Source of the DNA: Curvularia clavata
Taxonomy: Eukaryota
Assembly: GCA_023920165.1 (NCBI GenBank)
Contig: CP089276.1
Coordinates: 4,278,001-4,342,000, forward strand
Direction of reading: 5' to 3'
Length of the DNA stretch: 64,000 bases
Each line of letters starts with the position of its first letter. The stretch's first letter is position 1. The position numbers were made by a program, and so were the translations under genes. This document shows positions 1 through 36,496 of this stretch, piece by piece. A model generated the notes under the pieces. It saw only the letters and a list, made by a program, of their open reading frames with translations, ran no database searches and was not told where the DNA came from.

Positions 1-3000
1 CTGGGGATACTACTAAAGCTAAATTAAGTAGCGACGAGAGGTATAAAATATCTAGTAAGAAAAAAAAAACTTCTACGTATAAGACTAAATATAAGAAGAT
101 AGCTAAGTTTAAAAAGAAATACTAACTAGCTACTCCGCGCTATAATAGCGCCTTACCAGAAATCTTATATATAAGAGATAACCTAAAATATATAGAACTA
201 TAGACTAATATACTATAACAACTCTTAAGTTAACCTTTTTATAGATATAATTATAATAAGTCTAATATACTTCTTTATATATATAAAGATATATAGAATT
301 TTAGATTAGATATTAACTTCTTTTCTATTATAACTAATTAGAAACTACCAGACTACACGCATATTATGGCCAATATCTAACGACTACAAGAAAATACAGA
401 GTTCCCTAAGGATAAGAAGACACCCTAGAAGAAAAACTCCACAACGATACCTTAATGGGCCAAGAAGGTATAAGCCAACTAGACATGTAATAATTAGTAC
501 TAACTTAGTCTTTATTAGTACTACGCTAATAACTATAAGTATGCGTGGATCTACTAGATAGGTTGCATCTATAACTTCTATCTAACGTATTAGTAAGTAA
601 AATAAAGATCTAGCTAGAATCTAACTAACGCTTCTAGATATTCTAAATGTAACTAGTTATAGTTAGAATATACTAATATAGGATATATAAAGTATCTATA
701 AGATAAGCGCATAGCCATACACTTTCTAGAAAGAGACAGCTCTAGAAAAGTAGTAGATATATAGACTACTTATATTACTTGAAGTAAGAATAACGTATAA
801 TAAGTATATAAATAACTCTTATAGTATATCTATCTTTTAGATAAATATAAGAAATATAAAGTAGAGAAACTCTATAACAGATTTATAAAGGAATTATAGA
901 CTTTTTTAAGCTAGCGCTATAAAGGCTAAGTACCTCTAGAGAAATCAACTTAGTAAACTTCCTAGGATTGATTAAGTTTATAGTGAAGCTTAATAGAATA
1001 TAGATATAGACATTAGTAGACTTAGAATTATAGACAAACTATATTTTAGCGCACGCCATATAACGAGCTAGACTTAAAATATAGTAGAAATAAGAGCTAT
1101 GTCTACTATATATCGCTAGCAGCGAATCTATATCTAAAGAAAATAATATTATAGAAGAGGTTAGATAAGTAATACTTAGTATTTAAAAGTATAAGAAGAA
1201 AGTAGATCTAGACATCCTTAGACTAGCTATCTATAATATTATTTTAGAACTCCTATAGCTACGAGAATATAACCCGCAGATTAACTAGAAGTCGAAAGTG
1301 TTCAAATTCAAATGCTACGGACTAGGCGCAACTGTAAGCTAGCCTACGCATTAGTAGAGTTCAATAGTAGATAAGAATAATATTACTAAATAGTATAATA
1401 ACGTAGAGAAACGAGCATACTTAAAAGGTAGTTTCTAGAGTAGAAAGCCGAATTTAGTAGATACTAAAACTAGACTAACAGACTATAAAGCTAGAGGAAA
1501 AGAGAAGAGCGCAACTCTAGAAATCTCTAAATAATATAGAGACCTAGAATACTTATTTTAGAAAGTAGTAGATAAATAAGTATTACTAAAGCATTAACTC
1601 TAGGACTATAGAATTGTAATCTAAAAAGAAAAGAAACTACTTTTTAGCTCTATATACTAATTAATAGAATAAGAACTTGAAGTACTATAAAAGTATTTAG
1701 ATAAAGCCTAAAAGAAAGGGTATATATAAAAATTAGAATTACTAGCTAGAGTATTAATTATATTTATACTAAAGAAAAATAGATTAGATCGACTATATAT
1801 TAACTACTAAGGGCTTAATAATATGACTATTAAAAATTAATACTCACTACTAAATATTATAGAACTAAGAAATTAACTAATATAAGTAAAGATCTTTATA
1901 GTACTAGATCTATAAGACGGCTACTATCTTATTAGAATTGCAGAAGGCGAAGAATAGAAAATAGCTTTTAGAATATAATATAGATGTTTTAAATATATAG
2001 TTATATTATTTAGACTTATAAACACCCTAGCCACATTCTAGAAACTTATTAATAACGTACTTAGGCCCTACCTAGATATATTTATTATTATATATCTAGA
2101 TAACATCTTAGTCTACTCTAAGAATAAGAAATAATATACGAAATACGTCTATAAAGTGCTAACCGCCCTAGATAAGTATAGTCTCAGACTTAAATCTTAG
2201 AAGTATGAATTCTATAAGACTTAGGTTAACTTCTTAGACTACACTATAGGAAAATAAGGAGTATAGATAAGTAAAAAAAAGATTAAAATCATTATAGAAT
2301 AGCTAGAACTAACAACCTTTAAAGAAATATAATTCTTTTTTAAATTTGTAAACTTTAATAGAGTATTTATTAAAGACTTCTCTAAAATTATAGCCCTACT
2401 TATATAGCTATTAAAGAAGTTAGTACTAAACTACTTTACTTTAGGCTATAAGAGAGGTATTATATTCGATATACTTAAAGAAGTATATATAAAAATACTA
2501 TACCTTAAGATATTTAAACTAAATAAACTACTATAAATTAAGATAGATATATTAGATCTAGCTTTAGAAAGATGCGTATACTAACTATACGAAGATAAAT
2601 AGTATCTAATTATATACTATTTAAGAAAATTTTTAGGATCTAAAGAATAATATAATATATACGATAAAGAACTACTAGCTATAGTAGCCTATATATAATA
2701 CTAGAGAGTCTACGTATATAGCTGCTCAGAACTTACTATATACACGGATTATAAGAACTTAACCCACTTTACTACTACTAAAGTTCTTAACTACTAATAA
2801 ATCTAATAGGCTGAATTGCTTAGATAATATAAGTTCAAGATCGTATATATACTAGGAAAAGATAATAATAGAGTAGACACTTTTAGTAGAAGACTAGACA
2901 TTATAGGAACAAAAACTATTATAGACTAACTAATACTCTAGATAAATATAGACGGAATATTAAGTCTAGTATATAAGCTTAATCTACTTATAACAATTAG

Positions 3001-4290
3001 AAATAATATATCTAAAGACTAGTAGGAAGCAATTATTTAGCAATATCACGATAATTTTATACACAGATATCCCAGAATCGCTAGAATAATAGAACTAATT
3101 TAAAGAAACTTCGAATTTAGTAAAATAAAAGAAAAGGTCGCAGCTTTTATTGCCAAATACGAATACTATTAGAAGGATAAGTATAGTATATACGTATTAT
3201 ATGGAGAAATATAAGTACTAGAACTGCTAAGTACCCCTTAGATAGATATCTCCATAGACTTTGTTATAGAATTACTACTATTAATAGATTCTGTTACTAG
3301 AATAATCTAAAACGCGATATTAGTCGTTATTAATAGATTTACGAGATATGCAGAATATATACTATTTAAAAAAGACTATACCGTAGTGTAATTAGTATAC
3401 GTCATTCTTAATAAGATTATTAGATACTATAGAATACTAAAAATAATTATTAGCGATAGAGATAAGCTTTTTATATTAAATTTCTAGACCACACTCATAG
3501 CAGAAATAGGCACTAAGCGGAAACTATCTATAGCATACTACCTGGAGACTAATAGACAAATAGAAAGAATAAATTATATAATAAAAACATACCTTAGAAT
3601 ATATAGTAACTACTAATAAAATAATTAGATATAACTACTACCTATAGCACAACTAGCATATAATTATAAGCTATTAGAGTTAACAAAATAAATACTATTT
3701 TACGCGAACTATGGGAGACATCTAAACCTCTTTACTAGAATATTACTAAGTTTAAAAATGGAAGCAGCCATTACCACAGCTAAAGAAATAAAGGAAATAT
3801 ACGAAGAACTATAAAAATTACTTAAAAAAGCCTAATACTAAAGTATCTTATATATCAACTAGAAAAGAAAAAAAGTTTTTTAGCTAAAGAAGAGGGATAA
3901 AGTATATCTACTTATAAAGAACCTTTGTACGATACGACCAAGTAAGGGACTAGATAATATTTATATTAGGCTATTTTTAATTAAAGTCTAGAACAGACTA
4001 GTTATCTATATACTTAATCTACTACTAGACGTAAAGATATATCTAAAGTTTTATATTAAGTTATTAAAATCTACAAACTCTAAAATGCTACTATAAAAAA
4101 TATTCTATTTCAAACTAGAGGAAGAAGACGAGTTTAAAGTTGAGAAAATTCTAGCATACTAGACTATCTATAAAGAAATAGAATACTTAGTTAAGTAGTT
4201 AGAATACAACTATAGCAAAAATATATAAGAATAGGAAACAAACCTTACAAACTATCTATACAAGTTAGACTAATATCACTATATAAAGCT
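1..4290 (+). pseudogene. Gypsy gag-pol remnant (PR-RT-RH-IN-chromodomain), RIP-mutated
   Basis: Recognisable motifs with in-frame TAA/TAG at positions expected to be Gln/Trp. No long ORF in the ORF track. Confidence 0.85.
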
Positions 4291-4520
4291 TCCTTATATC
4301 TAGGGTCGTCTTCTAAAAGAGAAGATATAAACGCACTCTAGTCTAAAGCTAAAGTACTAGATATTAAGCTACCTTCTAACTACTCTACCTTCTAGTTAAT
4401 ACTTTTAATAGCCTCTAAAGTCTTCATCTTCTCTATAAACTTTTTAGATTTGTTAATCTACTATTACTTATAATACTTAAGTATTTTCTTTTATTTATAA
4501 AGATAATCCTTTTTTATATA

Positions 4521-6652
4521 CAGTGGGGTGACACGAAAAAAGATCACAAGGAAAAATAGCATTTTTCACTAGGCTATATCTTAGCTAATAAAATAGCTAA
4601 AAATATAAAAGCTTAAGATTTGTATAGAGAATTACCAGCTCTTCTAGTCTATAATCTAAAAAGAAGCTTAGTAAGTATATAGCTCTTAGAAAGAAATGCT
4701 GAACTAGTGAGAAAAAAAAACGTCAACTTTACACGTATTTTTCGCGCTGAGATCTTGCAATTTATATAGCTATCTATATATAGATATATACTATTAGTAT
4801 ATATATATAATATATATTTTTTATAGCTATAGTTACTTATCTAAATTAGAAGATATATATATAACTTATATTTTAGTAAATATATAAGATAATAATAGTA
4901 AATTACTATCTAACATTTTGTATACCAGCCCTTAGCTTCCACTACTCTATTATAGCGTTTGGGCATAGATAAAATACAGCTATCTATGTCTTTTTGTGGT
5001 ATTTTATGCCACTCTTGGTGAATAGCTGTAATAAACGTATTTATACTAGTCTCACTAGCGCCAGTGCCAAGACTAGAGCTTGGCAGCTTAGTAAGCCGGT
5101 TTTTAAGCAAGCTCCATACGTTTTCTATTGGATTTAGATCTGGGCTATACGCTGGATGGTCGAAAAGTGTAATTTTATGGCGCTTAAACCAGTCTAAAAC
5201 GTTTCTAGCCTTGTGGATCGTTGCGTTATCCTGTTGGAATTTCCAGCCTAGATAGCTATATATTAGTAAAGTATATTATACTAGTTAGATATATATATAT
5301 ATATAAGTATATATATATATATATAAGTATATATATATATATATAACTATATATAAGTAAAAATATATGGTAAAACTTACCGCGTTTTATATTCGGTTTT
5401 ACATACGGGATTAGACATTTTCTAATATAGTGGTGATTTCGATGTTTAACTACGCTATTTGGCGTCTTAATAACCACTAGATTGGATCTGCCACCTATCC
5501 AAATAGCTCCCCAAACTTGGATAGTTATATCATGGGCTAAAAATTGGCTTAGTCAGCTAGATATATAAAATATAATATATATATATAGTTATATATATAT
5601 ATAACTATATTTTGGCTTATTAGAAATATTTTTAAACGTACTTGTATTTTTAGTAGAGTATATTTTTGGATTTTAGTGGTATTTTGGCCTATTTCGAGAA
5701 AATTCGGCTCGAGATCCATATCCACGCTGGATTCCAGACTCGTCAGAAAATATAACTTTTTTAAAGTTAATATTACTAAGCTTTTTAAGCGTAGTTTTAG
5801 CGTATAATAGCCGTTTTTTTAGCTTTTTTAGCGTTTAAAATTGGCTTTTTTTGACTAGTTGTTATAGTCCAACCCTCAGCTTTTAAAACTCTTTGAAGAG
5901 TTCTATTAGATATTTCTAGATTATTTTCGTTTAATAATCTATTTTTTAGCTTTTTCAGACTTCGCGTTATATCTCTATTTAACGCTCTTATAGCTCTAGT
6001 AGTTGTCTTTGGTATTCTGCCTAAACTAGCTCTTTTTTGCTGACTAATAGTCTTATATTTTCGTTTTATTCGAGCTATAGCGTTGTATATAGACCGTGGA
6101 GTCTTTTGAAAGTGATTTATTATATTTTTTATAGGTGTATTAGCGTCTAAAAACGCTTTGATTTGGCGTTCGAAATTCGACAGTTGTGGCTCCATTGTGT
6201 GGGGAATACAGTTTTAAGTTGCTAGAAATGAAAAGCTATAGTTATACACTAGTTGATTACTAATAGCTGACTAAGCTAGTGCTTATGTAAGCTAGTGCCA
6301 AAATTTCAAATCTCATATAGCTATTTAACTAGATAGACAACTATAGCTTAAAGCTATATATATTATATATAAAGACTTATAGTATATATCTATATATAGA
6401 TAGCTATATAAAATAACAAATATCAGCGCGAAAAATACGTGCAAAGTTGACGTTTTTTTTTCTCTCTAGTTCAGCATTTCTATCTAAGAGCTATATACTT
6501 ACTAAGCTTCTTTTTAGATTATAGACTAGAAGAGCTAGTAAATCTCTATACAAATCTTAAGCTTTTATATTTTTAGCTATTTTATTAGCTAAGATATAGC
6601 CTAGTAAAAAATGCTATTTTTCCTTATAATCTTTTTTCGTGTCACCCCACTA
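4521..6652 (-). mobile_element. Tc1-family DNA transposon with ~310-bp TIRs (copy T1)
   Basis: TA|CAGTGGGGTGACAC...GTGTCACCCCACTA|TA. Long inverted repeats ~4521-4830 and ~6340-6652. Internal DD34E transposase. Confidence 0.93.
4910..6195 (-). pseudogene. Tc1 DD34E transposase, 3 predicted exons (6195-5642, 5536-5381, 5247-4910), with one frameshift and one premature stop
   Basis: Spliced reading gives HTH-type N-terminus, 'VIFSDES', 'IQVWGAIW', 'FQQDNATIH', 'YSPDLNPIENVW' (34 residues between D and E). Extra A in the A7 run at 5814-5820 and in-frame TAA at 5673-5675. Confidence 0.85.
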
Positions 6653-6659
6653 TAAATAA

Positions 6660-7150
6660 AAAAAAGTTATAAAAAACGTTAGTCTATAACTAGCCTAAAT
6701 TAGTCAATAGTCTAGATAGTAATAGTTTAGTTATTAGATAGTCTATACTAGAAGTAGAGCTTCTTTTAGTCTACTCTTATATACAATTCTAAAAGCTTAA
6801 GATAGTATAATTTTAATTAGTAAATTCTTACTCTCACATCTTAACCTCTAGAAGCTCGCGCTAAAGTCGCATAGTCTCTATTACAGCCTAAAGCTAGCGC
6901 TCTTTAGCACGAGTAATCTTAAAACGCTTTTACTACTTCTTAGCCTTAACCTTCTTTTACTCTTCTTTAGAAATAAAAAGACTATATTTAGTAGAAACTA
7001 AAATATAACTAGTATGGCGACTAGTTGCTATATTTATAAAATAACAAAAATTCTTCTCTTTATAACGTTTATACTAGAAAATTATCTTATAATTTTATTT
7101 CTTTATATAGTTAGCGTGGGCCTAACGCTAAAGAGTCGAATTCTAGTTAT
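6660..7150 (-). pseudogene. Antisense accessory ORF of Gypsy G1: Zn2Cys6-like motif plus coiled coil (RIP-mutated)
   Basis: Minus frame at 7073-6984 has TAT/TAT/TAT/CAT/TAT/TAT at C-x2-C-x6-C-x8-C-x2-C-x6-C spacing, followed by an E/K/R-rich helical stretch. Ends approximate. Confidence 0.6.
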
Positions 7151-7320
7151 AGATACAACGAGTTAGTTAAACTTTAGATATAGTTAGAAAGATATAGAGA
7201 AAGAAGCGTCTATAATATAATAGATATATCTTAATACTTATCTAAACTACTAGCACTAAGCAATAAATAAAAAAATAATAACCTAGAGTATTAGAATAAT
7301 AACTCTAAAAGAGAAGATAA

Positions 7321-7822
7321 TATTATAAGTAATAAAGAAAAATCTCTCCTTAATAATAGCTATAATTAGAAGACTATTAGATAATATATTAGAAAGTAAT
7401 AATCTCTATAGAGAGACGATTACGTAACTAGCTTTAAACTAAAACTAAGAAACCGCGCTAGTATATAAGGATACGCTTATATATAACTAAAGTAACTTTA
7501 AAAACTTTAGAGAACGTAGAGATTATTCTATAAAAATAGTAAAAATAGAACTAAAAGTAATAAATATAAGAATATATTAAATTTTTTTATCATATTTATT
7601 ATAGTTAATTTAGTAAAGTATCTTTCTATAGTCTCTTTATACTTAGATTAATACTAGTTATTCTATCTTCTAATAGAATTAGTTTTATCTATTTTTATTA
7701 TTCTCTACTACTAAATTACTAGACAACTATCATATAGTATACTTCGTAGAAACTAGCCTCACCCTAATATAAAATCTAGGCTAGATAAATATATTCCTAC
7801 TAACGTAGAACCCCATATAATA
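7321..7822 (+). repeat. 3' LTR of Gypsy G1 (RIP-mutated)
   Basis: TATTATAAGTAA...CCCCATATAATA is the RIP version of the ends of the solo LTR at 28490-28972 (TGTTACAAGTAA...CCCCGTGTAACA). Confidence 0.85.
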
Positions 7823-10800
7823 AGATACTTTAAGAAATATTTACTTCAATTCTTTAAAAGCTTCCTAGCATTCTTTTATCTAGTTAAATCTAACTTTCTT
7901 TTTAATAATCTTAGTAAATAGTACTATAATCCAGAAGTAATTCCTAATAAACTTTTAGTAAAAGTTCGCAAATCCTAAGAAGAATTACACGTCTTTAACT
8001 ATTTTAAGAGTTAGCTATTCTTATATAGTCTAGACTTTTTCTAGATTTATTTTAATACCTTCTATTAAGATTATAAAGTCTAAAAATTCCATTTCTTATA
8101 TATAGAATTCGCATTTCTTAGCTTAAAAATACAGCTTATATTTTTTAAACTTCCATAAGACCTTCTTAACATATTCGATATATTCTTCAAGAGTTCCTTT
8201 AGAATATACTAATACGTCGTCTAAATATACTATCGCGAAAATCTCTAGATATTTATAGAGAGCGTTATTAATAACTAATTAGAAGATTACTAGCGCATTT
8301 ATAAATCCAAATAATATAACTATATACTCATATAGTCTATATTTTATTTTAAACACTAATTTCTATTCATCACTTTCTTTAATTCTAATTTAATAGAATC
8401 TCTCTTAGATATTAAATTTTATAAACTACTTAGCTCCTTAGAGTCGATCTATAAGTTCTATTATTAGTAGTAGCGGGTATTAGTTTTTTTAGATAACTAT
8501 ATTTAATTTCCTATAGTTAATATATAGTCGCTATTTACTATTAGTCTTTTTTATAAATAGTATTAGCAAAACTATTAGTCCGTAGCCCAGGCGTATAAAT
8601 CTCTTTTTTAGATTCTTTTAGAAGTATTTCTTAAGCTTAGCATTATACTTAGATAATATTAGGTATATTCTTTCTAAAATTAGCTTAGTACCTTCTTCTA
8701 AGATAATCTTATAATCCTATTCTTAGTATTTAGCTAGGTCTATTACTTTATTTTTTTTAAATAGTTCTCTAAACTTATTTATTTAGTATTCTTTAGATAT
8801 ATTTAGTAGTAAAAGTTTATCCTTCTTAGACGTAACTTATCTTATCTATATAACTCTTACTTACTAAAAATCTTTTATATAGATTCTCGCAATCTTATAT
8901 AGTAAGATTTTACTAAATCTCCTATCCTAGATTAAGCTCTAATTTGTTAGGCGTATTTCGTATCTTGCTCTAGCTACTTTACGCGCAGATTTCTAGCTAA
9001 GTAGTATCTATATTTACTAATTAATAGCCAGATTATAGATATCTAACTAATTATAATCTATTAATATGCCTTCTTCTCTAAAATCTATAATATTAATATT
9101 TATTTAGCTTTTTATATTAGCTACTATTATAGAGACTAACTAGATTTCTAGTCTTATTATACTATTTCTATATAACGTAGGTTTTTCATCGGCTAGTACT
9201 ACTTATATTAGCTTTACCTTTGCCTAATAGGGTATATTATATTCTTTAATTACTCTAGAGAATATAATAGTTTTCGCTACACTACTATCTACTATAGCTA
9301 ATAGTCTATATCCATATACATACGTATTTATAAGAAGTCTTAGCTTATATTTACTAGCGTTTCGTACTTTCTTAAGGGTTAGTATAGGACTGCCTTTGCT
9401 AGTTTAACTCTATTTTTAGTAGCATTCTAGTTTTTTAGCCATCTCTAGACCCTAAGCTTCTTTTTTTTCTATTTTTATAGAAAATAGCTATTGTTTTCTT
9501 TTAAATATCTATATATTATATAGCTATCGTCTATATAAAAGATCTAGAATAAGTTTAAATATAGAATCATCTTATTTATTATCTCTAGCAAGTTAACTTC
9601 CTTTATTCTATACATCTTACACTTAATCATCTAGCATTTCTTAGCCGTAATCGTATTATATAGATAGTAATTTGTATATCTTACCGCGATTCTCTACTCT
9701 TAGTAGAATTAGCATTTCTCTATATAGTTAATCTAGCAAAGCTGTTCATAAGCTTACTTATATTCTTCTTTATAGATATAATAATCTAATATAAAATAGT
9801 CGTTTACCTATAGGTACTTATAGTTAGGGTCATACTCATCCAATTTATATTTTTCTTTAGTATCTAAATAGAATATATAAAATTATCTTTTATATTTATT
9901 CTAGATAAAAATCTTATATTTATTTTATTCCTTACTTAATATATAGATATAATAGTCCAATACCTTATAATCCGCATCTTTTAGCTAAGCGTAGGAATAT
10001 TCTTCTAAGTCGTACTAGAATAGCTATTATTTATTAGTGTAGAATTCGTAATAGTCTATACTCTTATATTCAACCTAGTAAAGCTTTTTATACTTAGCTT
10101 TATAATTATTTTCTAGTTCTAGTAGTTTATTCTTAAAATACAGCTATTCCTAAGCTACCTAAAATAAGACTTCTCTAGCTATTAGCCCAGTAACTACTAT
10201 CCTTCCTTCTTAAAAGGGGCAGCCTTTACTATAGTGCGCTAGATCTCTATATATCTAATATAGGTTCTAGGCAATTTATTGTTAGACATCTATATTCTTT
10301 ATAGTCTAGTTAGATAGTTTCAGTACTTCTTATATTATATATTCGTCTATCTTTATAAGTTCTAGAACAACTATATATTCTATACTGTTAGCTAGATATA
10401 CTTCGTTGTAGAGGTTTAGGTCGCTAAAATTATCGTCTAATATAAGATTGTAGTTTAGATATAGAGTAAATAGTTATATTCTCTTAATCTTAACTATAGT
10501 CTATTTACTAGTTTTATTTTTATATTTATTCTTAGAGCAGTCTCTATAAAAGTAGTCTATTTCGCCATATTAGAGATATACCTTACTATTAAAACGTCTT
10601 TAGCATTCCTCTTTAGAAAAGCCTTTCTAGTTCCTTTCTTAGATTTTCTTTTCTTTAGATTTCTCTTATATCTTACTAGTTATAATAGTATTACTATTAA
10701 AGTTTTTATTATTTTAGTATTTCTTAATATTAGCTCTATAGGGCTAGAAATATCTTTTCTTCTACTTATTTCTTTTCTATAGCCTATTATTAATTTGCGT

Positions 10801-11207: not shown

Positions 11208-13062
11208 ACGTAGTAGATAAGCGAGTCGCGCAGGCAAGCGAGTCGCGCACCTTACTAACTTTCTTACCCTATTATACTTGCCTCTATTATAGCTCCACGC
11301 CACGCTATTTAATTACTCTTAAACGAATTAGATATCCAGCTTACTATACAGTCTCTTAATTCTAATTAAATTCAAATAGGCTAGCGCGCAGCTTTAATCT
11401 TTAATATATCTAAATTAATATTATATAATTGACGCGCTAGGAAGCGTACTAGACGCGATTGCCAGCCTAACTTGAAGAAGCTTACTTAGATAGAAGAAGA
11501 GGTAATTATTAGCCATATACTTAATTTAGATTAGCGCAGATTTACGCCTATCTATGCTGCTATATGCGATATAGCTGATAAGCTGCTGGCTGCGTATAGC
11601 GCTAGCCAAGTTAAGTAGAAATAGCTAGCTAACTTTATTAAGCGTATAGACAGTCTTATAACGCGTTTTAATTAGGTGTATAATAGATAGAGAGCTCTAT
11701 ATAAAGATCTAGTCTTAATTAAGAGCTAGTTTAAGCTTGTAAAGTAGATAAAAGCTAAGTATAGCATCTGTAACGAGGACGTCTATAACTTTAATAAAGC
11801 TAGCTTTTTAATAGGCAAGATTACTACTTAGCTTATCGTTATAGCGTTAGAAAGAAAATCTCAACTAAAAGCTATCTAGCTAGATAGTTATGAGTAGGTA
11901 ATATTTATCGCTATAATTAACGCAGCTAGCTGGTCTATCCTACTATTTCTAATCTTTACTAGTAAGTATTACCTGTCCGCTTAGTACGATAAGATAGAGA
12001 TTCTACGCGACTAGGCGATTACAGTCAGCGATAATAGCTAGACGACTAACGAGCTAAAAGTCGAGTGGTTAAAGCACTTTATTAAGTATATAGAGGGTAA
12101 AGTTATTAGAGCATACTAGCTACTTATTTTTAACGGCTATAAGAGCTACTAGTTACTTAAGTTCTAAGAGCTCTATAAGGAGAACAATATCTACACGCTC
12201 TATATGCCGCCTTACTCGTCTTATCTATTTTAGCCTCTTAATATTAGCTACTTCTCGCTATTAAAGCGCGCGTATAGCCGTAAGGTAGAGAGCCTAATAT
12301 GTAACTATATCAACTATATTACTAAGCTCGAGTTTCTACCAGCATTTAAGGCCGCCTTTAATCACTCGTTTACCTTAGCTAATATCTACTCTACCTTCTA
12401 TAGCGCAGGTCTTATACCTCTCTAGCTAGATGTTATTCTATTAAAGCTTGACGTAAAGCTGCGTATATCTACTCCACTAGCTATTCTAGTAGAGGCTCTC
12501 TAGCAAGCTTATATATCTAGTAACATATGTAAGCTTAAAGCTTAATTAACGTTAATACGTAATCGCGTTTAGCGGCACTAAGACTTATTACTAGCTTTAA
12601 TTATTATAATAATTAGCTAGCTTAAGAAGAGGGTAGAAATAATAATACTCTTAGCTAAGCTAATACGCGATTAAATCGCTAGTTTTAAAATAGCTAATAA
12701 AATAGTAATAAAGTATAGATAGTGTAAAAGAAAGTAGATATAGAAGTAAGAGATGCTTATAAAGAGAGAAGGAGAGAATCTACTCGCGTAGTATAAGGCA
12801 GATCAGTAGATTACTTATAAATAGCGCCATAGAGAAGAGCGATCAGGTGTCAGCTAACAGACTTTAGCGCGCTATAGTAGGTGTAGAGAGACTGGCTATA
12901 ATACGCGTATATATAAAAATAATACTATAGTAACTAGTTAATCTACTACACTAATATATATTAAGATAGTCGTATAGTAGTAGAGTTATATGCTGATAGA
13001 GGTGCGAAGATTTAGTAGGGTGCGCGACTCGCTTGCCTGCGCGACTCGCTTATCCACTACGT
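11208..13062 (+). mobile_element. Fot1/pogo-type DNA transposon (F1), RIP-inactivated
   Basis: TA|ACGTAGTAGATAAGCGAGTCGCGCAGGCAAGCGAGTCGCGCACC TIR mirrored at ~13019-13062|TA. DDE_1-type remnants 'VYNFN(D)KA', 'MPPYSSYLF*PL' and a C-terminal CCHC remnant. Confidence 0.92.
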
Positions 13063-15023: not shown

Positions 15024-17105
15024 TAGTAGAAAGATAAAAAAAAGATTATAAGAAAAAATAGCACTTTTTCCTAAGTTATATCTTAGCTAATATATTAGCT
15101 AAAAATATAAAATATTAAGATTTATATAGAGCTATCCTAGTTCTTAGAGTCTATAATTTCAAAAAAAATTAAATATATATATAGCTCTTATAAGAAAATA
15201 CTAAACTAGAGAGAAAAAAACATATCAACATTATATATATTTTTTGCGCTAAGATTTTATAATTTATATAGCTATCTATATATAGATATATCCTATTGGT
15301 ATATATATATAATATATATTTTTTATAGCTATAGTTATCTATCTAAATTACAAAACTTATACATAAGTTATATTTTAGTATTTATATGAAGTAATAGTAG
15401 TAAATTTCTATTTAATACTTTGTATACTAGCCTTTAGCTTCTACTACTCTATTATAGCGTTTTAGCATAGATAAAATATAGCTATCTATATCTTTTTATA
15501 GTGTTTTATGCTACTTTTAGTAAATAGCTATAATAAATGTATTTATACTAGTCTTACTAGTGCTAGTACTAAGACTAGAGCTTAGTAGCTTATTAAGCTA
15601 ATTTTTGACTAAGCTCTATATATTTTCTATTAGGTTTAAATCTAGGCTATATACTAGATAACCAAAAAGTATAATTTTATAGTGTTTAAACTAGTCTAAA
15701 ATATTTCTAGCTTTATAGATTATTGTGTTATCTTATTAGAATTTCTAGTCTCGATAGCTATATATTAGTAAAACATCATATAATAGTTGAATATATATAT
15801 ATAACTAAATATATATATATATATAACTATATATAAGTAAAAATATATAGTAAAACTTACTATATTTTATATTTAGTTTAATATATAGTATCAGATATTT
15901 TCTAATATAGTAGTAATTTTAATATTTAACTACGCTATTTAGCGTCTTAATAGCTACTAGATTAAATCTACTATCTATCTAAATAGCTCTCTAAACTTAG
16001 ATAGTTATATTATAAGCTAGAAATTAGCTTAGTTAGCTAGATATCTAAAATATAACTATATTTTAGCCTATTAGGAATATATCTAAACGTACTTATATTT
16101 TAAGTAGAGTATACTTTCAGATTTTAGTAGTATTTTAGTCTATTTTAAGAAAATTTAGCTTAAGATCTATATCTACGCTAGATTCTAGACTTATTAGAAA
16201 ATACAACCTTTTTAAAGTTAATATCACTAAGCTTTTTAAGCTTATTTTTAGCGTAGAGTAGCTAGTTTTTGCTTTTTTTTTATTTAAAATTAGCTTTTTT
16301 TAACTAATTATCATTATAGTCTAGCTCCCTACTTTTAAAACTCTTTGAAGAGTTTTACTAGATGTTTCTAGATTATTTTAAGCTAATAGATTGTTTTTTA
16401 CTTTTTTTAGACTATATAGTATATCTCTATTTGAAGCTTTTATAGCTCTAGTAGTTATTTTAGATATTCTATCTAAACTAGCTTTTTTTGACTAAATGAT
16501 AGCTTTATATTTTTATTTTATTTTAGCTATAGCGTTATAGATAGACTATAGATTTTTTTTGAAATAATATATTATATATTTCATAGATATATTAGTGTCT
16601 AAAAACGTTTTAATTTAGCGTTGAAAATTGAACGGTTATAGCTCTACTATATAAAGAATATAGTTTTAAGTTACTAGAAATAGAAAGCTATAGCTATATA
16701 CTAGTTAATTACTAATAGCTTACTAAGCTACTACTTATATAAGCTAGTGCTAAAATTTAAAACTTTGTATAGCTATTGAACTAGATGAATAAATATAGCT
16801 TAAAACTAAATATAATATATATATATATACTAATAATATATATCTATATAGATAGCTATATCAATCAGAAAATTTTAGCGCGAAAAATACGTATGAAGAT
16901 AATATTCTTTTTTTCTTTCTAGTTTAGTATTATCTTATAAAAGCTATATATATATTTTTAATTTTTTTCAAATTATAGACTTTAAAAGCTAGTAAATCTT
17001 TATATAAGTTTCAATCTCTTATATTTTTAGCTATTTTTTTAGTTAAAAAATAGCTTAGTAAAAAGTACTATTTTTTTTATAATCTTTTTTTATATTACTC
17101 TACTA
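15024..17105 (-). mobile_element. Tc1-family element copy T3, heavily RIP-mutated
   Basis: Colinear with 4521-6652 along its length (both TIRs and transposase), mostly C>T/G>A changes, shorter intron microsatellites. Confidence 0.88.
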
Positions 17106-17534
17106 TAATAGACTTTATAGTAAAGTTGTTAAAATTATTAAAGCTAAAATTAGCTTAATACTATAATATGATACTAGTAATTATGAGTTAATTAACTAAA
17201 TTAATAAAGCTTATACTAATAAAAAAAATTATAATAAAAGGGAATATATATAAAATATCTAAAAATTAATAATAGATAGAGATAGATTATTTATACTAAA
17301 ATACTAGTTAATATCTTTAGTAAAACTAAAAATTAAGAAAAAACTATTTATTAGTTTCTATCTAGAAACTTATAAGTAAATAGAATAAATAAACTAAATA
17401 CTAAAATAATATTAATAACTCTATACTAGTAAGCTAAAATATAACTAGATTAGAGTTTTACCAATACTATTACATATTAGTTTATAATAGTTAAAAATTA
17501 GTAATAATAAAATAGTTATTCTATTTTCTAAATT

Positions 17535-23611: not shown

Positions 23612-24809
23612 CTAGCTACAGCCTTTTACGAAACATTTTAAAAAACACTTTAGATTTTATTTTTTATATTTAAATTAAATTTAATAAATATAGTTTAAAT
23701 CTAGCCTCTACAACGCTATATTAGCATATTGTCTAATCTCTCCCTTATGTCCACTATCCTAATATCCTCTATCTCTATATTACTATCCCTATCTATATTA
23801 CTATTATCGTCGCTATTACTGTTTATATCTACCTCCGCGTCCATATCTATATTATCGTCCGACTAGCGTAGTCTTAACTAGATAAAATAGAGTATTATAT
23901 CTATCTAAGCTATACTTTTTAAATATTATAATACTGTTTCTATATTTATATACCTATCTTTAATAGTCTTCTTAATCTTATAAATATTATATTCTAGCTA
24001 TAATTAGATATCTAGAGTAGACAGTCTTACTATATTCTTCTTAATTAACTAGTAGCTAAAGTTATAAATTCTTAATGTGTCTTATCTATCAATAAGTGTA
24101 ATTTTCTAGCCTCGCAACTATTATAGCTATATTATATCTATCTAGCATATATAGTATAGAATATAGTTATTATTATTAGGTATAGTTATATCTAGAAAGT
24201 TAAGCTATTTAAAAAGCTATTTTTATAGCTCTATAGTAACTTTACTTAAAAGCAGCTTATAGAGAGTAGGCTATATATTTAAAGAGAGAGTAATAAAAAC
24301 AATTTATTATTTAGAGAGATTAGATATAATCTAAATTTAAAGAAGATTAAAAAAAGAGATAGGATAAGCTAAGTATATAATACTATTAACAGATTTTACT
24401 AAGCTAGAAATTAAGTTTATAAGAGTAGAAGAGTAAATATTTATAGATAGTATATACTACTCTAATACTATATATTCTTATTATAACTATAGTTTAAAAA
24501 CTTTAGGATTTTCTCTATCTATTATTAGCTATCTAATAGACTTCTATTTATTAGAGTAATTATATATTATTATTCTAATTTAGATTTATACTATATTTTA
24601 GATTTAATATATAAAGCTAAAAATACTAGAGTTTAAAATATAAGAGCTTAAGGCCTTATATTTAAATCCCTCCTTAGATATAATCTTTTTAAAATTTTTA
24701 AATTTTAGTAGGCTAAAGGGCGGCCTACCTTTATTTTAAGACCAGTTTTTAATATTAGCTAATCGCTATAGACGAGCTAGTTATGAGAAATAAAAATAGA
24801 AATAAATAA
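23612..24809 (+). mobile_element. Full-length A-tailed retroposon (second subfamily) with 14-bp TSD
   Basis: Begins CTAGCTACAGCCTTTT, ends GAAATAAAAATAGAAATAAATAA. Flanked by ATAATAGTATTTCT at 23598-23611 and 24810-24823, inside Gypsy gag. Confidence 0.75.
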
Positions 24810-25718: not shown

Positions 25719-26217
25719 TATTATATAGGATCTTATATTAGTAGGAATATATTTATCTAGCCTCTATCTAAGTTTGGGCGAAGCGATTATCTATAAAATA
25801 TACTATAAAGTAGTTATTTAGTAATTTAGATAGAATATAGATATAACTGAAAATAGATAAATCAATTCTATTAGAAGATAGAATAACTAAGTATTAATCT
25901 ATTTAAAAAATAACTTATAAGAGAATACCTAATAATGTTGACTATAATAAGTATAATAATAAAATCTAATATATTTTTATATCTATTATCTCTAGTTCTA
26001 GTATTTAACTGAGTCTTTAATATTAGAGATATTATTAGTATTTCTAGATATTTAGTATCTTATTAGAAATCTAACATATCTAGATATCTTTTCTTAGCAA
26101 AATACTAATTACGTAATCTCTACCCCGCGGGGATTATTACCTTCTAACGTGTCGCTAGTTGGCCTTCAACCGCGACCCTCGCGTCAAAGAGAGAATCCTT
26201 CTTTGTTACTTGTAATA
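25719..26217 (-). repeat. 5' LTR of Gypsy G5
   Basis: Reverse-complement homolog of the 28490-28972 LTR (ends TGTTACTTGTAATA on + strand). Confidence 0.85.
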
Positions 26218-26329
26218 TATATCTACTTTTATTATTTAGCTTAACTAATTATTAACTGATACTCTAGAATGTATTACAAATAGATAGATTTTATCTATTT
26301 TAATAAAGAATTTGAATATTAAATATATA

Positions 26330-28481: not shown

Positions 28482-28489
28482 TATATATT

Positions 28490-28972
28490 TGTTACAAGTA
28501 ACAAGGAAGGATCTCTCCTTGACAAGGCCGCATGGTAAGAGACCATCGGGCGACACGTCAGAAGGTCATGATCTCCGCGGGGCGGGATCACGTGACGTGC
28601 CATCTCGCCAAGGATAGCCATCTAAGATGACAGTACATGACCAGATGGCAGTAACATCTCGGCCATCTCGCATAAGCAAGATAGACAAGATGTCAGAACC
28701 AGAAGGCAATAGGTATAAGAATGTGTTAGATTTCATTATTACACTCGTTATAGTCAACTTATCAAGTACTCTCTTATAAGTTGTTTTATACACGGATTAA
28801 TACTTAGTTATTCTATCTTCTAATAGAATTAGTTTTGTCTATCTTTGTTATTCCCTACTACCAAATCGCCAGACAACTACCTTACGGTATACTTCGCAGA
28901 AACTAGTCTCGCCCTAACCCGGAATCTAGGCTAGATAAGTATATTCCCACTAACGTAGGACCCCGTGTAACA
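28490..28972 (+). repeat. Gypsy solo LTR, little RIP, 5-bp TSD ATATT
   Basis: ATATT|TGTTAC...GTAACA|ATATT, 483 bp. Homologous to the LTRs at 7321, 13462 and 25719. Confidence 0.92.
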
Positions 28973-29570
28973 ATATTAAGCTTAGCAAAGATTTTTATCT
29001 TATGATTTTAGGCTAGAAACTTATAAATATATAGTATTAGATATAAGTTTTTTCCAGTAATTATATCAAGTCTATAGCGATTAAAATATAGATATCTCTA
29101 TTTAGTTTCTAAGTATAGAAGACTCGAGAAATGAACAGATAGTTATTTAGATTAATATATTTTTTTCAAGATTTTCTATCAAAAATATTTTAGTAGTTTC
29201 AAATTTATTAGTACTCTACTAATATAAAGAGCTAAATTAATTTGCAAAAGATTTAGTTCATATACTTTTATAGTTATATAAGTAATATTTAGATAGTTGC
29301 TTTACTACTATCTTACTAGAGATATTGTAATATTAATAGAAAGTAGATAGAAATTAGTTTGAAATAAATTTGGTATTATAAGAACTATCTAGCTTTATAT
29401 ATTTTTCTAAAATATAATTAATTTTATAGATTTTTATTATAAAAAAATTATTTTTTTGTGGTTCAATGGATAATAAAAAAAACTTACTAAAATAATAGTA
29501 CTGTAGAGGAAACCTTTTCGTTAGATAGAGTTTAGCATAGACTTAGGAATAGATAGTAGTAGATAAATTA

Positions 29571-33033: not shown

Positions 33034-33817
33034 TCCTTCTAAATATACTATATATAAAGCTTCTCTAATATCTACTTATATAAATATATAGTAGTATCTT
33101 AAGCCTTTCTACTCTCTTTTATACGCGTCTCTAATTTTTCTTTTTCTAAAGTAAGATATTTAAATTTGGACTTTATAACCTAGACGTTGTAATACTAGTT
33201 ATAACGAAAATACTTACTATACTATCTTAAATAGATATATATTTTATATACCTGTCTATTTTTTATATACGCTCTATATTTCTAAACTATAATAGTACTA
33301 AAGAAATCTATAAAATTAGTAAGAGCTAAATAATAAGTAGTACTAAATAAAGATTGATATTTAGATATAATAAATAATAGTAGGGTAATAATATCTATAA
33401 TAAGAGACTAAATTAGTTATAGTATACTACTAAAACGCTATCTAATTAGTAATTCTAAATATACTCTTCTAGATAATAACTCTAAGACTTTAGATTTAAA
33501 AATAAACTAATAGAAAGGGAGGATAGTATTACGACTCTAGAAAAGTATAATATATATAAACTAGTAAGTAGTTTAGAGAATTTCTACGTATAGGTAACTA
33601 TACTATAATGCTATAGCTATGCTATATAATAGGTATGTAATATAATCTATAATCTATAAAGCTTAGCGGAATAGAGTAATAGAGCACTCTATATTTAATC
33701 TATTAATTTATAGTACTTAGTAGAATAGAGTAATAAAGTACTCTATATAAGACTTTAGTATATAGAAATAGATATCGAACTCTTATAGCTTAATATATTT
33801 AACTTAAATTATAAGTA
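33034..33817 (+). mobile_element. 3' fragment of a Gypsy element (G4): antisense ORF remnant, PPT, partial LTR from 33527
   Basis: Reverse complement of ~34852-35636. PPT GAAAGGGAGGATAG precedes the LTR. Confidence 0.8.
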
Positions 33818-33819
33818 TA

Positions 33820-34718: not shown

Positions 34719-35142
34719 TGTTAAGAGTATGATCTCGAGTGGAAGTAATATAAGACTTCCGGTGTCAAGACCTTCTTAGATTAGTTTTCGCGGATAAAGT
34801 AATAGTGTGTTATAAATAAAAGTTCTATAGTAACTATTATATTGTAGGTACTATACTCGTAACTTAAGTTAAATATATTAAGCTGTAAGGGCTTAATACC
34901 TATTCCTATATACTAAGGTATTATATAGAGTGCTCTATTACTCTATTATACTAAGCACTATAGATTAATAGATTAAATGCACGTTACTCTATTACTCTAT
35001 TCCGCTAAGCGTTATAGATTATAGAGCATATTACGTGACCTAGTGCGGTATAGCTGTAGAATTGCGGCGCAGTACCTATATGTAGGAATCCTCCAAACTG
35101 CTTACTAGCTTATACGTGTTATAGTTTTCTAGAGTTATAACA
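34719..35142 (-). repeat. 3' LTR of Gypsy G3 (424 bp)
   Basis: TGTTA...TAACA termini, adjacent PPT, partial second copy at 33527-33817. Confidence 0.85.
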
Positions 35143-35300: not shown

Positions 35301-35882
35301 ATACTAAAATAACAACCTTTATCTAGTACTGCTCGTCGTTCAGCCCTTGCCAATTTTGTAGATTCCTTCGGTACTATTATAGTTTAAAAATACAAAGCGT
35401 GTGTAAAAAATAGGCGGGTATGTAAAATATACATTCGCTTAGAGAAGTATAGTAAGTATTTTTATTGTAACTAGCGCTGCAATATTCAGATTATAGAGTC
35501 CGAATTCAAACGTCTTATTTTAGAGAAAGAGAAGTTAGAGGCGCGTATAAAGGAGAGTTAGAAAGCTCAGAATACTACTATACGTTTGTATAAGCAGGCT
35601 TTAAAAAAGCTTTGTACGTAATATGCTTAGGAGCAACGTTTACATTTTTAAATAGATTTATTAAAGCGTTGCGCTAAAGAGACGATAGCAGTTAAGAGTA
35701 GGGAGCTAGAAGAGTTAGAGTGGGGTAAGGTTATAGAGTTTTCTAAGTCGGGCTCTTCCCTTACCCTCTCTCCTAGTACCTAGAGTACCTTCGAGGGTTT
35801 GCCTTTAGATTACTAGGAACCTCTTGATATAAGTTTACTTATTGCTAGTAGTACTAGATTAAGCGTAGATGGCAATTTATAA
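35301..35882 (+). pseudogene. Antisense accessory ORF of Gypsy G3: Zn2Cys6-like motif plus coiled coil (RIP-mutated)
   Basis: One frame without indels. Cys or RIP-Tyr codons at 35391, 35400, 35421, 35448, 35457, 35478 (C-x2-C-x6-C-x8-C-x2-C-x6-C), then 'ESEFKRLILEKEKLEARIKES'. Confidence 0.7.
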
Positions 35883-36496
35883 AGTTTATTTTCTATTCTT
35901 ATATATTCTCGCTATTATTATATCCTAACTATTTAACTAGATACTCAGTTCCTTTTCTTATAATGCGGTGCGCTAGGATTTTCTCAACTTCAAACTTGTC
36001 TTCCTCTTCTAGTTCGAAATAAAATATTTTTTATAATAGCGTTTTAGGGTCTATAAATTTTAGTAGCTTAATATAAAATCTTAGATATATCTTTATATCT
36101 AGTAGTAGATTAAGTATATAGATAACTAGTCTACTCTAGACTTTAATTAAAAATAGCCTAATATAGATATTATCTAATCTCTTACTTAGTTGTATTATAT
36201 AAAAGTTCTTCGTAAGTAGATATACTTTATCCCCCTTCTTTAGCTAAAGTGCTATTTTTCTTTTCTAGTTAATATATAAGATACTTTAGTATTAAGTCTT
36301 TTTAAGTAATTTTCGTAGTTCTTTATATATTTTCTTTATTTCTTTAGCTATAGCGATAGCTACTTCTATTTTTAAACTTGGTAACGTTCTAGTAAAGAGA
36401 TTTAGATATCTTCTATAGTTTACGTAAAATAGTATTTATTTTGTTAATTCTAATAATTTATTATTATATGCTAGTTGTGCTATAGGTAGTAGTTAT

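What the first reader, a model, noticed from the sequence alone, without database searches (positions are those of the whole stretch)
6660..7150. A second, diverged Gypsy family has the same antisense six-Cys/coiled-coil ORF at the same position
Seen: in G1 (different LTR, no obvious nucleotide similarity here to G3) the antisense frame has TAT-x2-TAT-x6-TAT-x8-CAT-x2-TAT-x6-TAT at 7073-6984. De-RIPed this is about 'C-ER-C-EEKNFR-C-FVDTATGR-(C)-AG-C-ISVSAE-C', then 'SEEEWEKV...' and a helical tract. The spacing equals that in G3. One site (CAT) is not explained by RIP alone. Inference: conserved spacing and position despite divergence suggest an old, selected accessory module of these chromoviruses and not a one-off capture. 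Further antisense coding-like sequence lies at ~4300-4500 (minus), across the Tc1 insertion.
Basis: partly seen in the sequence, partly recalled or inferred. Interest (0 to 1): 0.72.

Follow-up and report, generated by a model that had tools for sequence, protein, structure and literature searches.

The report
Dead antisense zinc-cluster gene in retrotransposon
The stretch is the mutation-wrecked, transposon-interrupted copy of a real third gene that many fungal Gypsy retrotransposons carry backwards between their polymerase gene and end repeat, encoding a small six-cysteine, coiled-coil protein that appears to be swapped between elements as a module.

Summary
Alone it is within chance for RIP-mutated DNA. 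The wider stretch is not: when RIP changes are allowed to be undone, it is the best non-G3 match in about 73,000 positions to a profile of intact relatives, and 0 of 250 control segments match as well.

Intact relatives are about 190 aa, with six invariant Cys at this spacing and a helix of about 80 residues. They sit antisense between a chromovirus pol and the 3' LTR and evolve under purifying selection. The Cys domain resembles Gal4-type Zn2Cys6 clusters in pattern and predicted fold but stays below Pfam's threshold.

G1 is not an independent diverged family. Its last ~500 bp of pol differ from G3's almost only by transitions, while the aORF and LTR are unrelated at the DNA level. In 10 intact elements the pol and aORF trees conflict. 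The module is old and selected, but it is exchanged by recombination.

Not settled: Cys at the six G1 sites was not read from less-mutated G1 copies, and site 4 (CAT) is unexplained.

This scan noted such genes before in at least 8 other genomes. The closest published case is brtn of Boty.

The parts
6845..7154 (-). G1 antisense ORF, N-terminal half: N-terminal helix region, six-site cluster and first part of the coiled coil. RIP-degraded with many stops. The start near 7154 (ATA) and the lower end are approximate.
   Evidence: RIP-aware profile scan, top non-G3 locus. RIP-aware Smith-Waterman against P0181/P0166: z 7.0, 0 of 250 controls.
6984..7073 (-). The six sites, TAT/TAT/TAT/CAT/TAT/TAT, spaced x2, x6, x8, x2, x6. 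They align with the six invariant Cys of the family.
4300..4520 (-). Candidate C-terminal half of the G1 antisense ORF (second part of the coiled coil and tail), in a different frame from the N-half. About 190 nt lie unaccounted between the halves (intron, insertion or indel).
   Evidence: Profile block 108-135 ranks 4 (strict) or 2 (relaxed) of about 73,000 positions at -4520. The tail block is best at -4358 and collinear with it. Moderate support only.
4521..6652 (-). Tc1/mariner element inserted into the G1 antisense ORF region. TIRs of about 330 bp start with CAGTGGGG. TA target duplication at 4519-4520 and 6653-6654.
   Evidence: (HTH_Tnp_Tc3_2, DDE_3).
7544..7822 (+). G1 3' LTR, about 279 bp. 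A less-mutated copy at 28691-28973 shows TG...CA ends.
   Evidence: Repeats. Depth jump at 7528-7815 and loose ends at 7546 and 7820-7822. Sequence ends.
1790..2824 (+). G1 pol: reverse transcriptase and RNase H.
   Evidence: Pfam RVT_1 E 1.2e-11 and RT_RNaseH E 5.6e-12 on the X-at-stops translation.
3631..4160 (+). G1 pol 3' part, the same sequence as G3b pol apart from RIP-type transitions. Similarity to G3 decays from about 4160.
4115..4290 (+). G1 chromodomain at the end of pol. The G1/G3 similarity break lies inside it, after 'VEKILA'.
   Evidence: Translations. Chromo domains at the pol C-terminus in all intact relatives tested.
35301..35882 (+). G3b antisense ORF, the best-preserved copy. 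Motif at 35391-35480 with Cys kept at sites 2, 3 and 6.
   Evidence: 64% identical to intact P0001, E 2.9e-67. 165 bits to the family HMM.
33037..33353 (-). G3a antisense ORF fragment. Motif at 33278-33189, all Tyr. Homology breaks off at 33036.
   Evidence: 42 bits.
35883..36496 (-). G3b pol 3' end with chromodomain, cut at 36496 by the Copia array.

Best explanation
SHOWN. Window 7154-6845 (minus strand), probably continuing at 4520-4300 beyond a Tc1 insertion, is a dead copy of an accessory gene of a chromovirus-type Gypsy retrotransposon. RIP mutation has riddled it with stops. The gene lies antisense between the end of pol and the 3' LTR.

Intact relatives encode proteins of about 190 aa. 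These have a short N-terminal helix, six invariant Cys (C-x2-C-x6-C-x8-C-x2-C-x6-C in most) and one long helix of about 80 residues. They are kept under purifying selection. G1 belongs to a different subfamily (nearest P0181/P0166) from G3 (nearest P0001). Even so, G1 and G3 share the same pol 3' end. The aORF-LTR end of the element has therefore been exchanged by recombination. Incongruent pol and aORF trees in intact elements show the same thing.

INFERRED. The six Cys bind two zinc ions as a Gal4-like Zn2Cys6 cluster, and the long helix makes a dimer. The protein binds DNA, most likely sites in the element's own LTR or 3' region, and tunes transcription or copy number. It lacks any activation or middle-homology region, so it may act as a repressor or competitor. 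In this window it does nothing: all three copies are RIP-killed.

The confidence given (0.7) is for the SHOWN part taken together. The identity of the locus alone I put at about 0.85, and the inferred DNA-binding regulator role at about 0.4.
For: Homology of G1:
- Ungapped RIP-aware scan with the family HMM (positions 12-88) put -7130 third, after the two G3 copies. It scored 68.5 bits (strict) against 40-42 for the next positions, and 90.3 (relaxed) against 63.2, among about 73,000 positions.
- RIP-aware Smith-Waterman of 6666-7202(-): P0181 230 and P0166 227, against a null of 250 RIPed control segments (mean 98, sd 18-19, max 144-150). That is z 7.0, with 0 of 250 reaching it. Against the G3-type P0001, z was 3.6, also 0 of 250.
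- P0181 against G1: 165 aligned columns, 31 identical plus 26 identical after undoing RIP changes.

Family:
- G3b hits intact P0001 at 64% identity, E 2.9e-67.
- The profile finds 219 proteins at E<=1.
- It finds 758 / 238 / 41 representatives of 50%-identity clusters at E<=1e-3 / 1e-10 / 1e-30.
- 113 of 120 carry the exact 30-residue six-Cys pattern.
- The six Cys are the only invariant columns across 88 diverse members.

Place:
- In 10 of 10 loci tested, the large ORF convergent with the aORF is a PR-RT-RNaseH-integrase-SH3-chromo pol. L011 and L013 are the same element, and L008 is partial.
- That pol ORF ends just beyond, or overlaps, the aORF match.

Selection:
- 23 unique intact copies gave 39 pairs with dS 0.05-2. 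Median dN/dS was 0.18, and 95% of pairs were below 0.5.

Zinc-cluster likeness:
- Pfam Zn_clus is the commonest match, in 42 of 88 members at E<=1 (best 1.8e-4). P0181 scores E 0.014 over residues 25-57.
- The AlphaFold model of P0181 has pLDDT 86.6, with short helices starting at each C-x2-C.
- Foldseek ranks 1-22 are all solved Zn2Cys6 DNA-binding domains. Examples are Pho7 (rmsd 2.4-2.6 over 36 columns) and Lac9 (2.3 over 32).
- UniRef names one member a Zn(2)-C6 fungal-type domain protein.

Dimer:
- Complex prediction with two copies of P0181 20-145 plus 4 Zn scored 0.42, best control 0.01.
- That mark was reached by 21 of 30 proteins solved as pairs of one chain and 0 of 23 solved as single chains. 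For eukaryotes it was 17 of 29 and 0 of 30.
- The runs agree in at least 96% of contacts, and partner pLDDT is at least 81.
- The model supports binding but does not show it, and coiled coils may pass from memory.

Mosaic:
- G1 3631-4130 against G3b: 436 identical, 61 transitions, 3 transversions and 0 gaps in 500 columns. Beyond about 4300 identity falls to 40-50% with gaps.
- AU tests: pol rejects {L037,L038} (p 2.9e-4) and {L001,L003,L004,L005,L011} (p 3e-40). The aORF rejects {L037,L003,L005} (p 4e-63) and {L001,L016,L026} (p 0.008).
Against: - A plain HMM search (--max, E<=1000) does not find G1 at all. Pfam finds nothing in the RIPed translations. Without undoing RIP changes, the G1 signal is weak (P0181 z 3.4, 5 of 250 controls reach it; P0001 z 0.6). 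The homology claim therefore rests on a RIP-aware score of my own design, calibrated only on this window.
- The motif alone is matched by Tyr-rich Tc1 sequence.
- Site 4 is CAT, which RIP cannot make from TGT.
- Codon 9 of the motif (TGT, 7046-7044) is a Cys next to site 3, so the register of site 3 is not certain. Other copies read TAT there.
- No intact or less-mutated G1 copy was read at the six sites.
- The two halves of the G1 ORF are in different frames with about 190 nt unexplained. The tail block alone is not significant (rank 56-500).
- Zn_clus is below Pfam's gathering score in every member seen. P0001-P0003 gave no Zn_clus hit even at E<=10. All Foldseek E-values are 0.2 or higher. 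PDB sequence hits to LAC9 and PUT3 are E 0.64 and 1.4.
- In some members the second loop is x8-x13, whereas canonical clusters keep x6.
- The predicted dimer is antiparallel (contacts 82-100, 75-103, 93-93). This would put the two clusters about 80 residues apart, unlike Gal4.
- dS is near saturation, so dN/dS is rough.
- Metagenome contigs of repeated elements can be assembly chimeras, which would mimic incongruence.
Confidence: 0.7

Rival explanations
1. The gene is real but is not a Gal4-type DNA binder. The six Cys form some other zinc or disulfide knot on a long antiparallel coiled-coil rod. The rod would serve as a scaffold, a tether between two partners (for example the pre-integration complex and chromatin), or a decoy against a host defence.
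For: - Zn_clus is below threshold in all members.
- Foldseek E-values are 0.2 or higher.
- The second loop varies in length.
- The predicted dimer is antiparallel, with each cluster packing on the partner's helix end.
- No activation or middle-homology domain is present.
- The ESM Atlas neighbours are all unnamed 'hypothetical protein' clusters without a common Pfam family.
Against: - Zn_clus is by far the most frequent Pfam lead, in 42 of 88 members.
- The top 22 fold matches are all Zn2Cys6 domains.
- Basic residues follow the second Cys, as in DNA-contacting clusters (family consensus).
Confidence: 0.25
2. One reading: G1 and G3 are two long-diverged chromovirus families, each of which inherited the ORF vertically with its pol.
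For: - The aORFs of G1 and G3 fall in different subfamilies. G1 matches P0181/P0166 better than P0001 (z 7.0 against 3.6).
- The LTRs and the aORF DNA are unalignable.
- The family is large and old.
Against: - The last ~500 bp of pol are the same sequence apart from RIP-type transitions: 3 transversions and 0 gaps in 500 columns.
- pol and aORF distances are uncorrelated in intact elements (Spearman 0.02 over 55 pairs, which are not independent and include the duplicate L013).
- All four reciprocal AU tests reject the other gene's clades.
Confidence: 0.1
3. Chance. RIP turns many codons into TAT and TAA, so a six-Tyr spacing plus a K/E-rich 'helical' tract is an accident of AT-rich DNA, and G1 has no such gene.
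For: - The motif-only score equals that of Tc1 Tyr-rich sites.
- 2 of 5 pattern matches lie elsewhere.
- The plain HMM finds nothing at G1.
Against: - The 77-codon block is the best non-G3 hit of about 73,000 positions by 26-28 bits.
- 0 of 250 control segments reach the G1 score.
- The match extends N-terminal of the motif ('STL.R..A.').
- It sits at the place where 10 of 10 intact relatives have the gene.
Confidence: 0.05
4. Independent capture of a host Zn2Cys6 transcription-factor fragment by each element.
For: Likeness to host zinc-cluster domains.
Against: - The N-terminal helix, spacing, coiled coil and tail motif are shared across the whole family, and G1 aligns to it over 165 columns.
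- No member reaches the Zn_clus threshold, as a recent capture would.
Confidence: 0.03

Closest known systems
brtn, the additional antisense gene of Boty-like Ty3/Gypsy elements of Botrytis cinerea and Sclerotinia (Zhao et al. 2011, Virology 417:248). I saw it only as cited in passages of PMC8365987, PMC7264820, PMC4227169 and PMC5987419. The paper itself is not held.
   Same: An extra gene on the antisense strand between pol and the 3' LTR of a fungal chromodomain-bearing Gypsy element, with function unknown.
   Different: Sequence homology to brtn was not tested, because no brtn sequence was available here. The named members of the present family are Dothideomycetes, not Leotiomycetes. None of the passages I read describes a six-Cys cluster or a coiled coil in brtn.
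Gal4-type Zn(II)2Cys6 binuclear-cluster DNA-binding domains with a dimerising coiled coil (Gal4, Ppr1, Put3, Leu3, Hap1, Pho7, Lac9; Pfam PF00172)
   Same: The six-Cys spacing lies within the family's consensus (the consensus is recalled). There are two short helices at the C-x2-C pairs and a helix after the cluster. These proteins give the best fold matches and the commonest Pfam lead.
   Different: - The match is below Pfam's gathering score.
- The protein is only about 190 aa, with no regulatory or activation region.
- The helix is about 80 residues long and predicted antiparallel, not a short parallel zipper.
- It is encoded by a retrotransposon.
Antisense additional ORFs between pol and the 3' LTR of plant Gypsy elements (Grande, RIRE2, Retand, PvRetro13); passages of the review PMC7264820 read.
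   Same: Same position and orientation. Conserved within families. Function unknown.
   Different: Plant elements are not chromoviruses of fungi. No sequence relation was tested.

Membership tests
   G1 has the spacing, but as TAT x5 and CAT x1. Five sites are RIP-compatible with TGT and one is not. No less-mutated G1 copy was read at these sites.
   Met only when RIP changes are allowed to be undone. G1 is the top non-G3 locus of about 73,000 positions, with z 7.0 and 0 of 250 controls. The plain HMM gives no hit.
   G1: pol chromodomain about 4115-4290 (+), ORF 7154 down to about 4300 (-), LTR from 7544. The layout is the same in 10 of 10 intact loci tested.
   A K/E/L-rich tract follows the motif. 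The second coiled-coil block ranks 2-4 at -4520, and the tail ranks 56-500 at the collinear -4358. The frame changes and about 190 nt are extra.
Zn_clus, fungal Zn(2)-Cys(6) binuclear cluster (Pfam PF00172) | Score at or above Pfam's gathering threshold (21 bits) | tested here: not met
   Tested on intact relatives. 42 of 88 match at E<=1, the best at E 1.8e-4; none of the scores printed (P0181's, 15.9 bits) reaches the 21-bit cut-off. P0001-P0003 give no hit. RIPed window copies give none.
Zn_clus, fungal Zn(2)-Cys(6) binuclear cluster (Pfam PF00172) | Consensus CX2CX6CX5-12CX2CX6-8C (recalled) | tested here: met
   Intact relatives: 113 of 120 have x2, x6, x8, x2, x6. Among more distant members the second loop can be x8-x13.
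Zn_clus, fungal Zn(2)-Cys(6) binuclear cluster (Pfam PF00172) | Binuclear-cluster fold | tested here: inconclusive
   Foldseek ranks 1-22 are all Zn2Cys6 domains (rmsd 2.3-2.6 A over 32-36 columns for Pho7 and Lac9). However, E is 0.2-2, and the query is a predicted model.
Zn_clus, fungal Zn(2)-Cys(6) binuclear cluster (Pfam PF00172) | Binds two Zn and CGG-type DNA sites | not testable with these tools
   Needs purified protein.
brtn of Boty-like elements | Antisense gene between pol and the 3' LTR of a fungal Gypsy element | tested here: met
brtn of Boty-like elements | Sequence homology to BRTN | not tested
   No brtn sequence was available and the paper is not held.
RIP (repeat-induced point mutation) relic | Differences between copies almost all C-to-T / G-to-A transitions, with low GC | tested here: met
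   61 transitions against 3 transversions in 500 columns. In run X1, other copies differ at A>G 88, T>C 74, C>T 44 and G>A 33 places, against 17 transversion places. GC is 17-35% over 1-36 kb.

The most novel reading that the evidence does not exclude
The antisense gene and the adjoining LTR form a swappable regulator-plus-target cassette. On this reading, fungal chromoviruses encode their own sequence-specific zinc-cluster dimer that acts on sites in their own LTR. Recombination inside the chromodomain region moves this cassette between pol backbones, giving an element a new regulatory identity, much as immunity regions are exchanged between temperate phages. The G1/G3 pair in this window would be one such exchange caught in a single genome.
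Probability: 0.2. Interest if true: 0.8.

Novelty: new member of a known kind. Interest (0 to 1): 0.5.

Why it matters
Antisense extra genes of LTR retrotransposons have been known since brtn (2011) and from plants, with no function assigned. Here the fungal kind turns out to be a large family: 238 representatives of 50%-identity clusters at E<=1e-10. It is under selection, and its predicted fold points to a zinc-cluster dimer. That gives concrete experiments: zinc content, dimerisation, and DNA binding to the element's own LTR. The pol/aORF incongruence, together with the G1/G3 mosaic in one genome, suggests that the 3' end of these elements (aORF plus LTR) is exchanged as a unit. This bears on how retrotransposon families are defined (by RT or by LTR) and how they diversify. 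The copy in this window is itself dead and has no present function.

Tried and rejected
- No whole genome is held for this window, so a de-RIP consensus of the G1 family could not be made.
- Pfam on the RIPed translations with X at stops gave nothing relevant. The first G1 query was out of frame.
- A plain hmmsearch of the family HMM against the six frames finds G3b (165 bits) and G3a (42 bits) but not G1.
- Read laying proved that other G1-family copies exist in organism A. One example is an 803-nt contig over 6799-7601 with 108 differences. Pieces at 80-95% likeness also exist in organisms B and C. However, it printed only 40 of 355 variable places. Within 6984-7073 only 7045 was shown, so it says nothing either way about the six sites.
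- The VIA-align wide search returned only long-helix matches (Z about 7), which says nothing about the Cys domain.
I used A3 instead.
- A viral-contig scan with the G1-type alignment A6 found no relative, so no intact G1-type element with its pol could be examined.
- The PDB sequence search gave only coiled-coil noise, plus LAC9 at E 0.64 and PUT3 at E 1.4.
- The tail block alone is not significant at G1.
- Two literature searches for a zinc-cluster aORF in retrotransposons found no such description. The library lacks most subscription journals.
- A search for CGG-type sites in LTRs was considered and dropped. At 50% GC, roughly 18 CGG triplets would be expected by chance in the roughly 570 nt of LTR and flanks (my own estimate, not run), so it had no power.
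- The earlier-notes look-ups by place and by 'brtn homology...' returned nothing.

Full report
CONTEXT. Window 1-36496 is AT-rich (GC 17-35% per 2 kb) and is a nest of degraded transposons. From 36497 a 4933-bp unit repeats 5.6 times at 100% identity. No whole genome is held. On the + strand a Gypsy element (G1) has RVT_1 at about 1790-2248 and RT_RNaseH at about 2522-2824. Its chromodomain ends pol at about 4115-4290. A Tc1/mariner element (HTH_Tnp_Tc3_2 and DDE_3 on the minus strand) sits at 4521-6652, with CAGTGGGG termini and a TA duplication. The G1 3' LTR is about 7544-7822. It recurs at 26000-25719 and 28695-28976. Read depth jumps at 7528-7815 and contigs break away at 7546 and 7820-7822. 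A less-mutated copy shows TG...CA ends.

OBSERVATION. On the minus strand the codons at 7073, 7064, 7043, 7007 and 6986 are TAT, and the one at 7016 is CAT. This gives Y-x2-Y-x6-Y-x8-H-x2-Y-x6-Y. Two G3 copies have the same spacing: + 35391-35480 (Cys kept at sites 2, 3 and 6) and - 33278-33189 (all Tyr). The pattern alone is not remarkable in such DNA. 2 of 5 loose-pattern matches are elsewhere, and Tyr-rich Tc1 segments equal G1 in a motif-only score.

WHAT G3 IS. The G3b frame (35313-35879, X at stops) matches an intact 193-aa protein, P0001, at 64% identity (E 2.9e-67). A profile of three such proteins finds 219 proteins at E<=1. 113 of the 120 listed have exactly C-x2-C-x6-C-x8-C-x2-C-x6-C. 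The seven exceptions are truncated or carry Tyr at Cys sites. A profile of 109 members finds 758 / 238 / 41 representatives of 50%-identity clusters at E<=1e-3 / 1e-10 / 1e-30. The lowest tier may include coiled-coil look-alikes. Named members come from Sporormia, Oleoguttula, Watsoniomyces, Acidomyces and Botryosphaeria. UniRef calls one a Zn(2)-C6 fungal-type domain protein.

IS G1 THE SAME GENE? A plain HMM search finds G3b (165 bits) and G3a (42 bits) but not G1. RIP turns TGT into TAT, TGG/CAA/CAG into stops, and GAx into AAx. I therefore scored each codon by the best residue reachable by undoing RIP-type changes. The strict version undoes changes only within TpA; the relaxed version undoes any T or A. 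I calibrated on the window itself.

- With HMM positions 12-88 ungapped, G1 (-7130) ranks third of about 73,000 positions, after the two G3 copies. It scores 68.5 bits against 40-42 for the next (strict), and 90.3 against 63.2 (relaxed).
- With gapped alignment against 267 family proteins, the best partners are P0181 (230) and P0166 (227).
- Against 250 control segments the null is 98 +/- 18-19 (max 144-150), so z is 7.0 and 0 of 250 reach it. For the G3-type P0001, z is 3.6 (0 of 250). Without undoing RIP changes, z is 0.6-5.1.
- P0181 against G1: 165 columns, 31 identical plus 26 identical after undoing RIP changes. The match includes the region N-terminal of the motif.

So G1 is a member of the family, but of another subfamily than G3. 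All six sites align with invariant Cys.

Direct reading of less-mutated G1 copies failed. Other copies exist in organism A and in relatives B and C, and they differ mostly by transitions. However, only 40 of 355 variable places were printed, and none of the six sites was among them. The one place shown inside the motif is 7045: codon 9 is TGT in the window and TAT in other copies. Site 4 (CAT) is not a RIP product of TGT.

THE C-TERMINAL HALF. After removing Tc1 in silico, profile block 108-135 ranks 4 (strict) or 2 (relaxed) of about 73,000 positions at -4520. The tail block is best at the collinear -4358, where its rank is only 56-500. The frame differs from the N-half, and about 190 nt are unaccounted for. 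This fits an intron or an indel.

PLACE AND SELECTION IN INTACT ELEMENTS. A metagenome scan gave 41 loci. In 10 of 10 loci tested, the large ORF convergent with the aORF is a chromovirus pol (protease, RVT_1, RNase H, Integrase_H2C2, rve, SH3_Tf2-1, Chromo). L011 and L013 are the same element, and L008 is partial. One further neighbour, in L036, is an unrelated LRR protein. 25 of 38 loci have an intact aORF. 23 unique ones gave 39 pairs with dS 0.05-2, with median dN/dS 0.18 and 95% of pairs below 0.5. dS is near saturation.

WHAT THE PROTEIN LOOKS LIKE.
- Pfam Zn_clus is the commonest lead (42 of 88 diverse members at E<=1, best 1.8e-4). P0181 scores 15.9 bits against a cut-off of 21, and P0001-P0003 show no hit.
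- AlphaFold on P0181 with 88 sequences gives pLDDT 86.6. The model has helix 4-19, short helices 28-33 and 47-52 at the two C-x2-C pairs, and one helix 62-142.
- Foldseek against the PDB gives no hit at E<=1e-3. Ranks 1-22 are nevertheless all Zn2Cys6 DNA-binding domains: Pho7, Ppr1, Leu3, Put3, Hap1, Gal4 and Lac9.
- The VIA wide search saw only the long helix.
- Two copies of residues 20-145 with four zinc ions scored 0.42 against 0.01 for the best control. That mark was reached by 21 of 30 proteins solved as pairs of one chain and 0 of 23 solved as single chains. The runs agree in at least 96% of contacts, and pLDDT is at least 81. The contacts are antiparallel. This supports a dimer but does not show one.

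MOSAIC. G1 3631-4130 and G3b 36496-35997 align over 500 columns with 436 identities, 61 transitions, 3 transversions and no gap. Similarity decays from about 4160, inside the chromodomain, and is random-like through the aORF and LTR. Among 10 intact elements, pol and aORF distances are uncorrelated (Spearman 0.02), and the trees disagree. All four reciprocal AU tests reject the other gene's clades (p 2.9e-4, 3e-40, 4e-63 and 0.008). One caveat is that metagenome contigs of repeats can be chimeric. The window's own mosaic does not depend on them.

LITERATURE. brtn (Zhao et al. 2011) is cited as the antisense gene of Boty-like elements (passages in PMC8365987, PMC7264820, PMC4227169 and PMC5987419). 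The paper itself is not held. Two full-text searches found no description of a zinc-cluster gene in retrotransposons. Earlier notes of this scan report the same kind of gene in at least 8 other genomes.

VERDICT. The copy here is dead.

Noticed in passing
window 36497-64000: This is a tandem array of 5.6 units of 4933 bp at 100% identity, with GC 42%. Each unit carries an intact 1396-aa Copia gag-integrase-RT ORF on the minus strand (36858-41048 in the first unit). It is un-RIPed although it lies next to heavily RIPed DNA, and it cuts G3b at 36496. It could be a very recent amplification, an LTR-mediated tandem, or an assembly artefact. No Rfam family matches.
   Followed up: partly
window 4521-6652, 26324-28487, 15038-17108: There are three copies of one Tc1/mariner family with unusually long TIRs (about 330-350 bp). 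Their Tyr-rich translated segments mimic the six-Tyr motif in RIP-aware scoring.
   Followed up: partly
window 8075-8554 (minus strand): A second Gypsy RT (RVT_1, E 2.7e-17) lies on the opposite strand just beyond the G1 LTR end at 7822. It is 69% identical to the G1 RT region 1755-2121. Its relation to G1 (nested or adjacent) was not worked out.
   Followed up: no
window 33036-33819 and 34852-35633: Two G3 3' ends lie head to head as an inverted pair (80% identical). They flank an LTR-like segment, 33822-34718, that recurs at 23905-24808. LTR-like units of about 345 bp recur at 17533, 20586, 22113, 24465 and 33819.
   Followed up: no
window 11905-12398 (+), with a copy at 31427-29566: This is a relic of a DDE_1 (pogo/Fot1-like) transposase (E 1.6e-15). 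The two copies are 76% identical over 1.9 kb.
   Followed up: no
window 28691-28973: This copy of the G1-type LTR is much less RIP-mutated than the one at 7544-7822. It lies inverted to another copy (25719-26000) on the other side of a Tc1 element.
   Followed up: partly
proteins P0282-P0311: About 30 near-identical proteins of 100-149 aa (most 117 aa) lie on Mb-long contigs of some fungal assemblies. They match only the C-terminal half (coiled coil and tail, 'RELASIxxLE') of the G1-type subfamily. This hints at a second exon called alone, or at N-terminally decayed copies.
   Followed up: no
loci L001-L005, L012, L013, L026, L037: Metagenome contigs of 6.3-7.4 kb have identical 123-174-nt ends. 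They look like unit-length, circularly permuted assemblies (internal region plus one LTR) of intact elements.
   Followed up: partly
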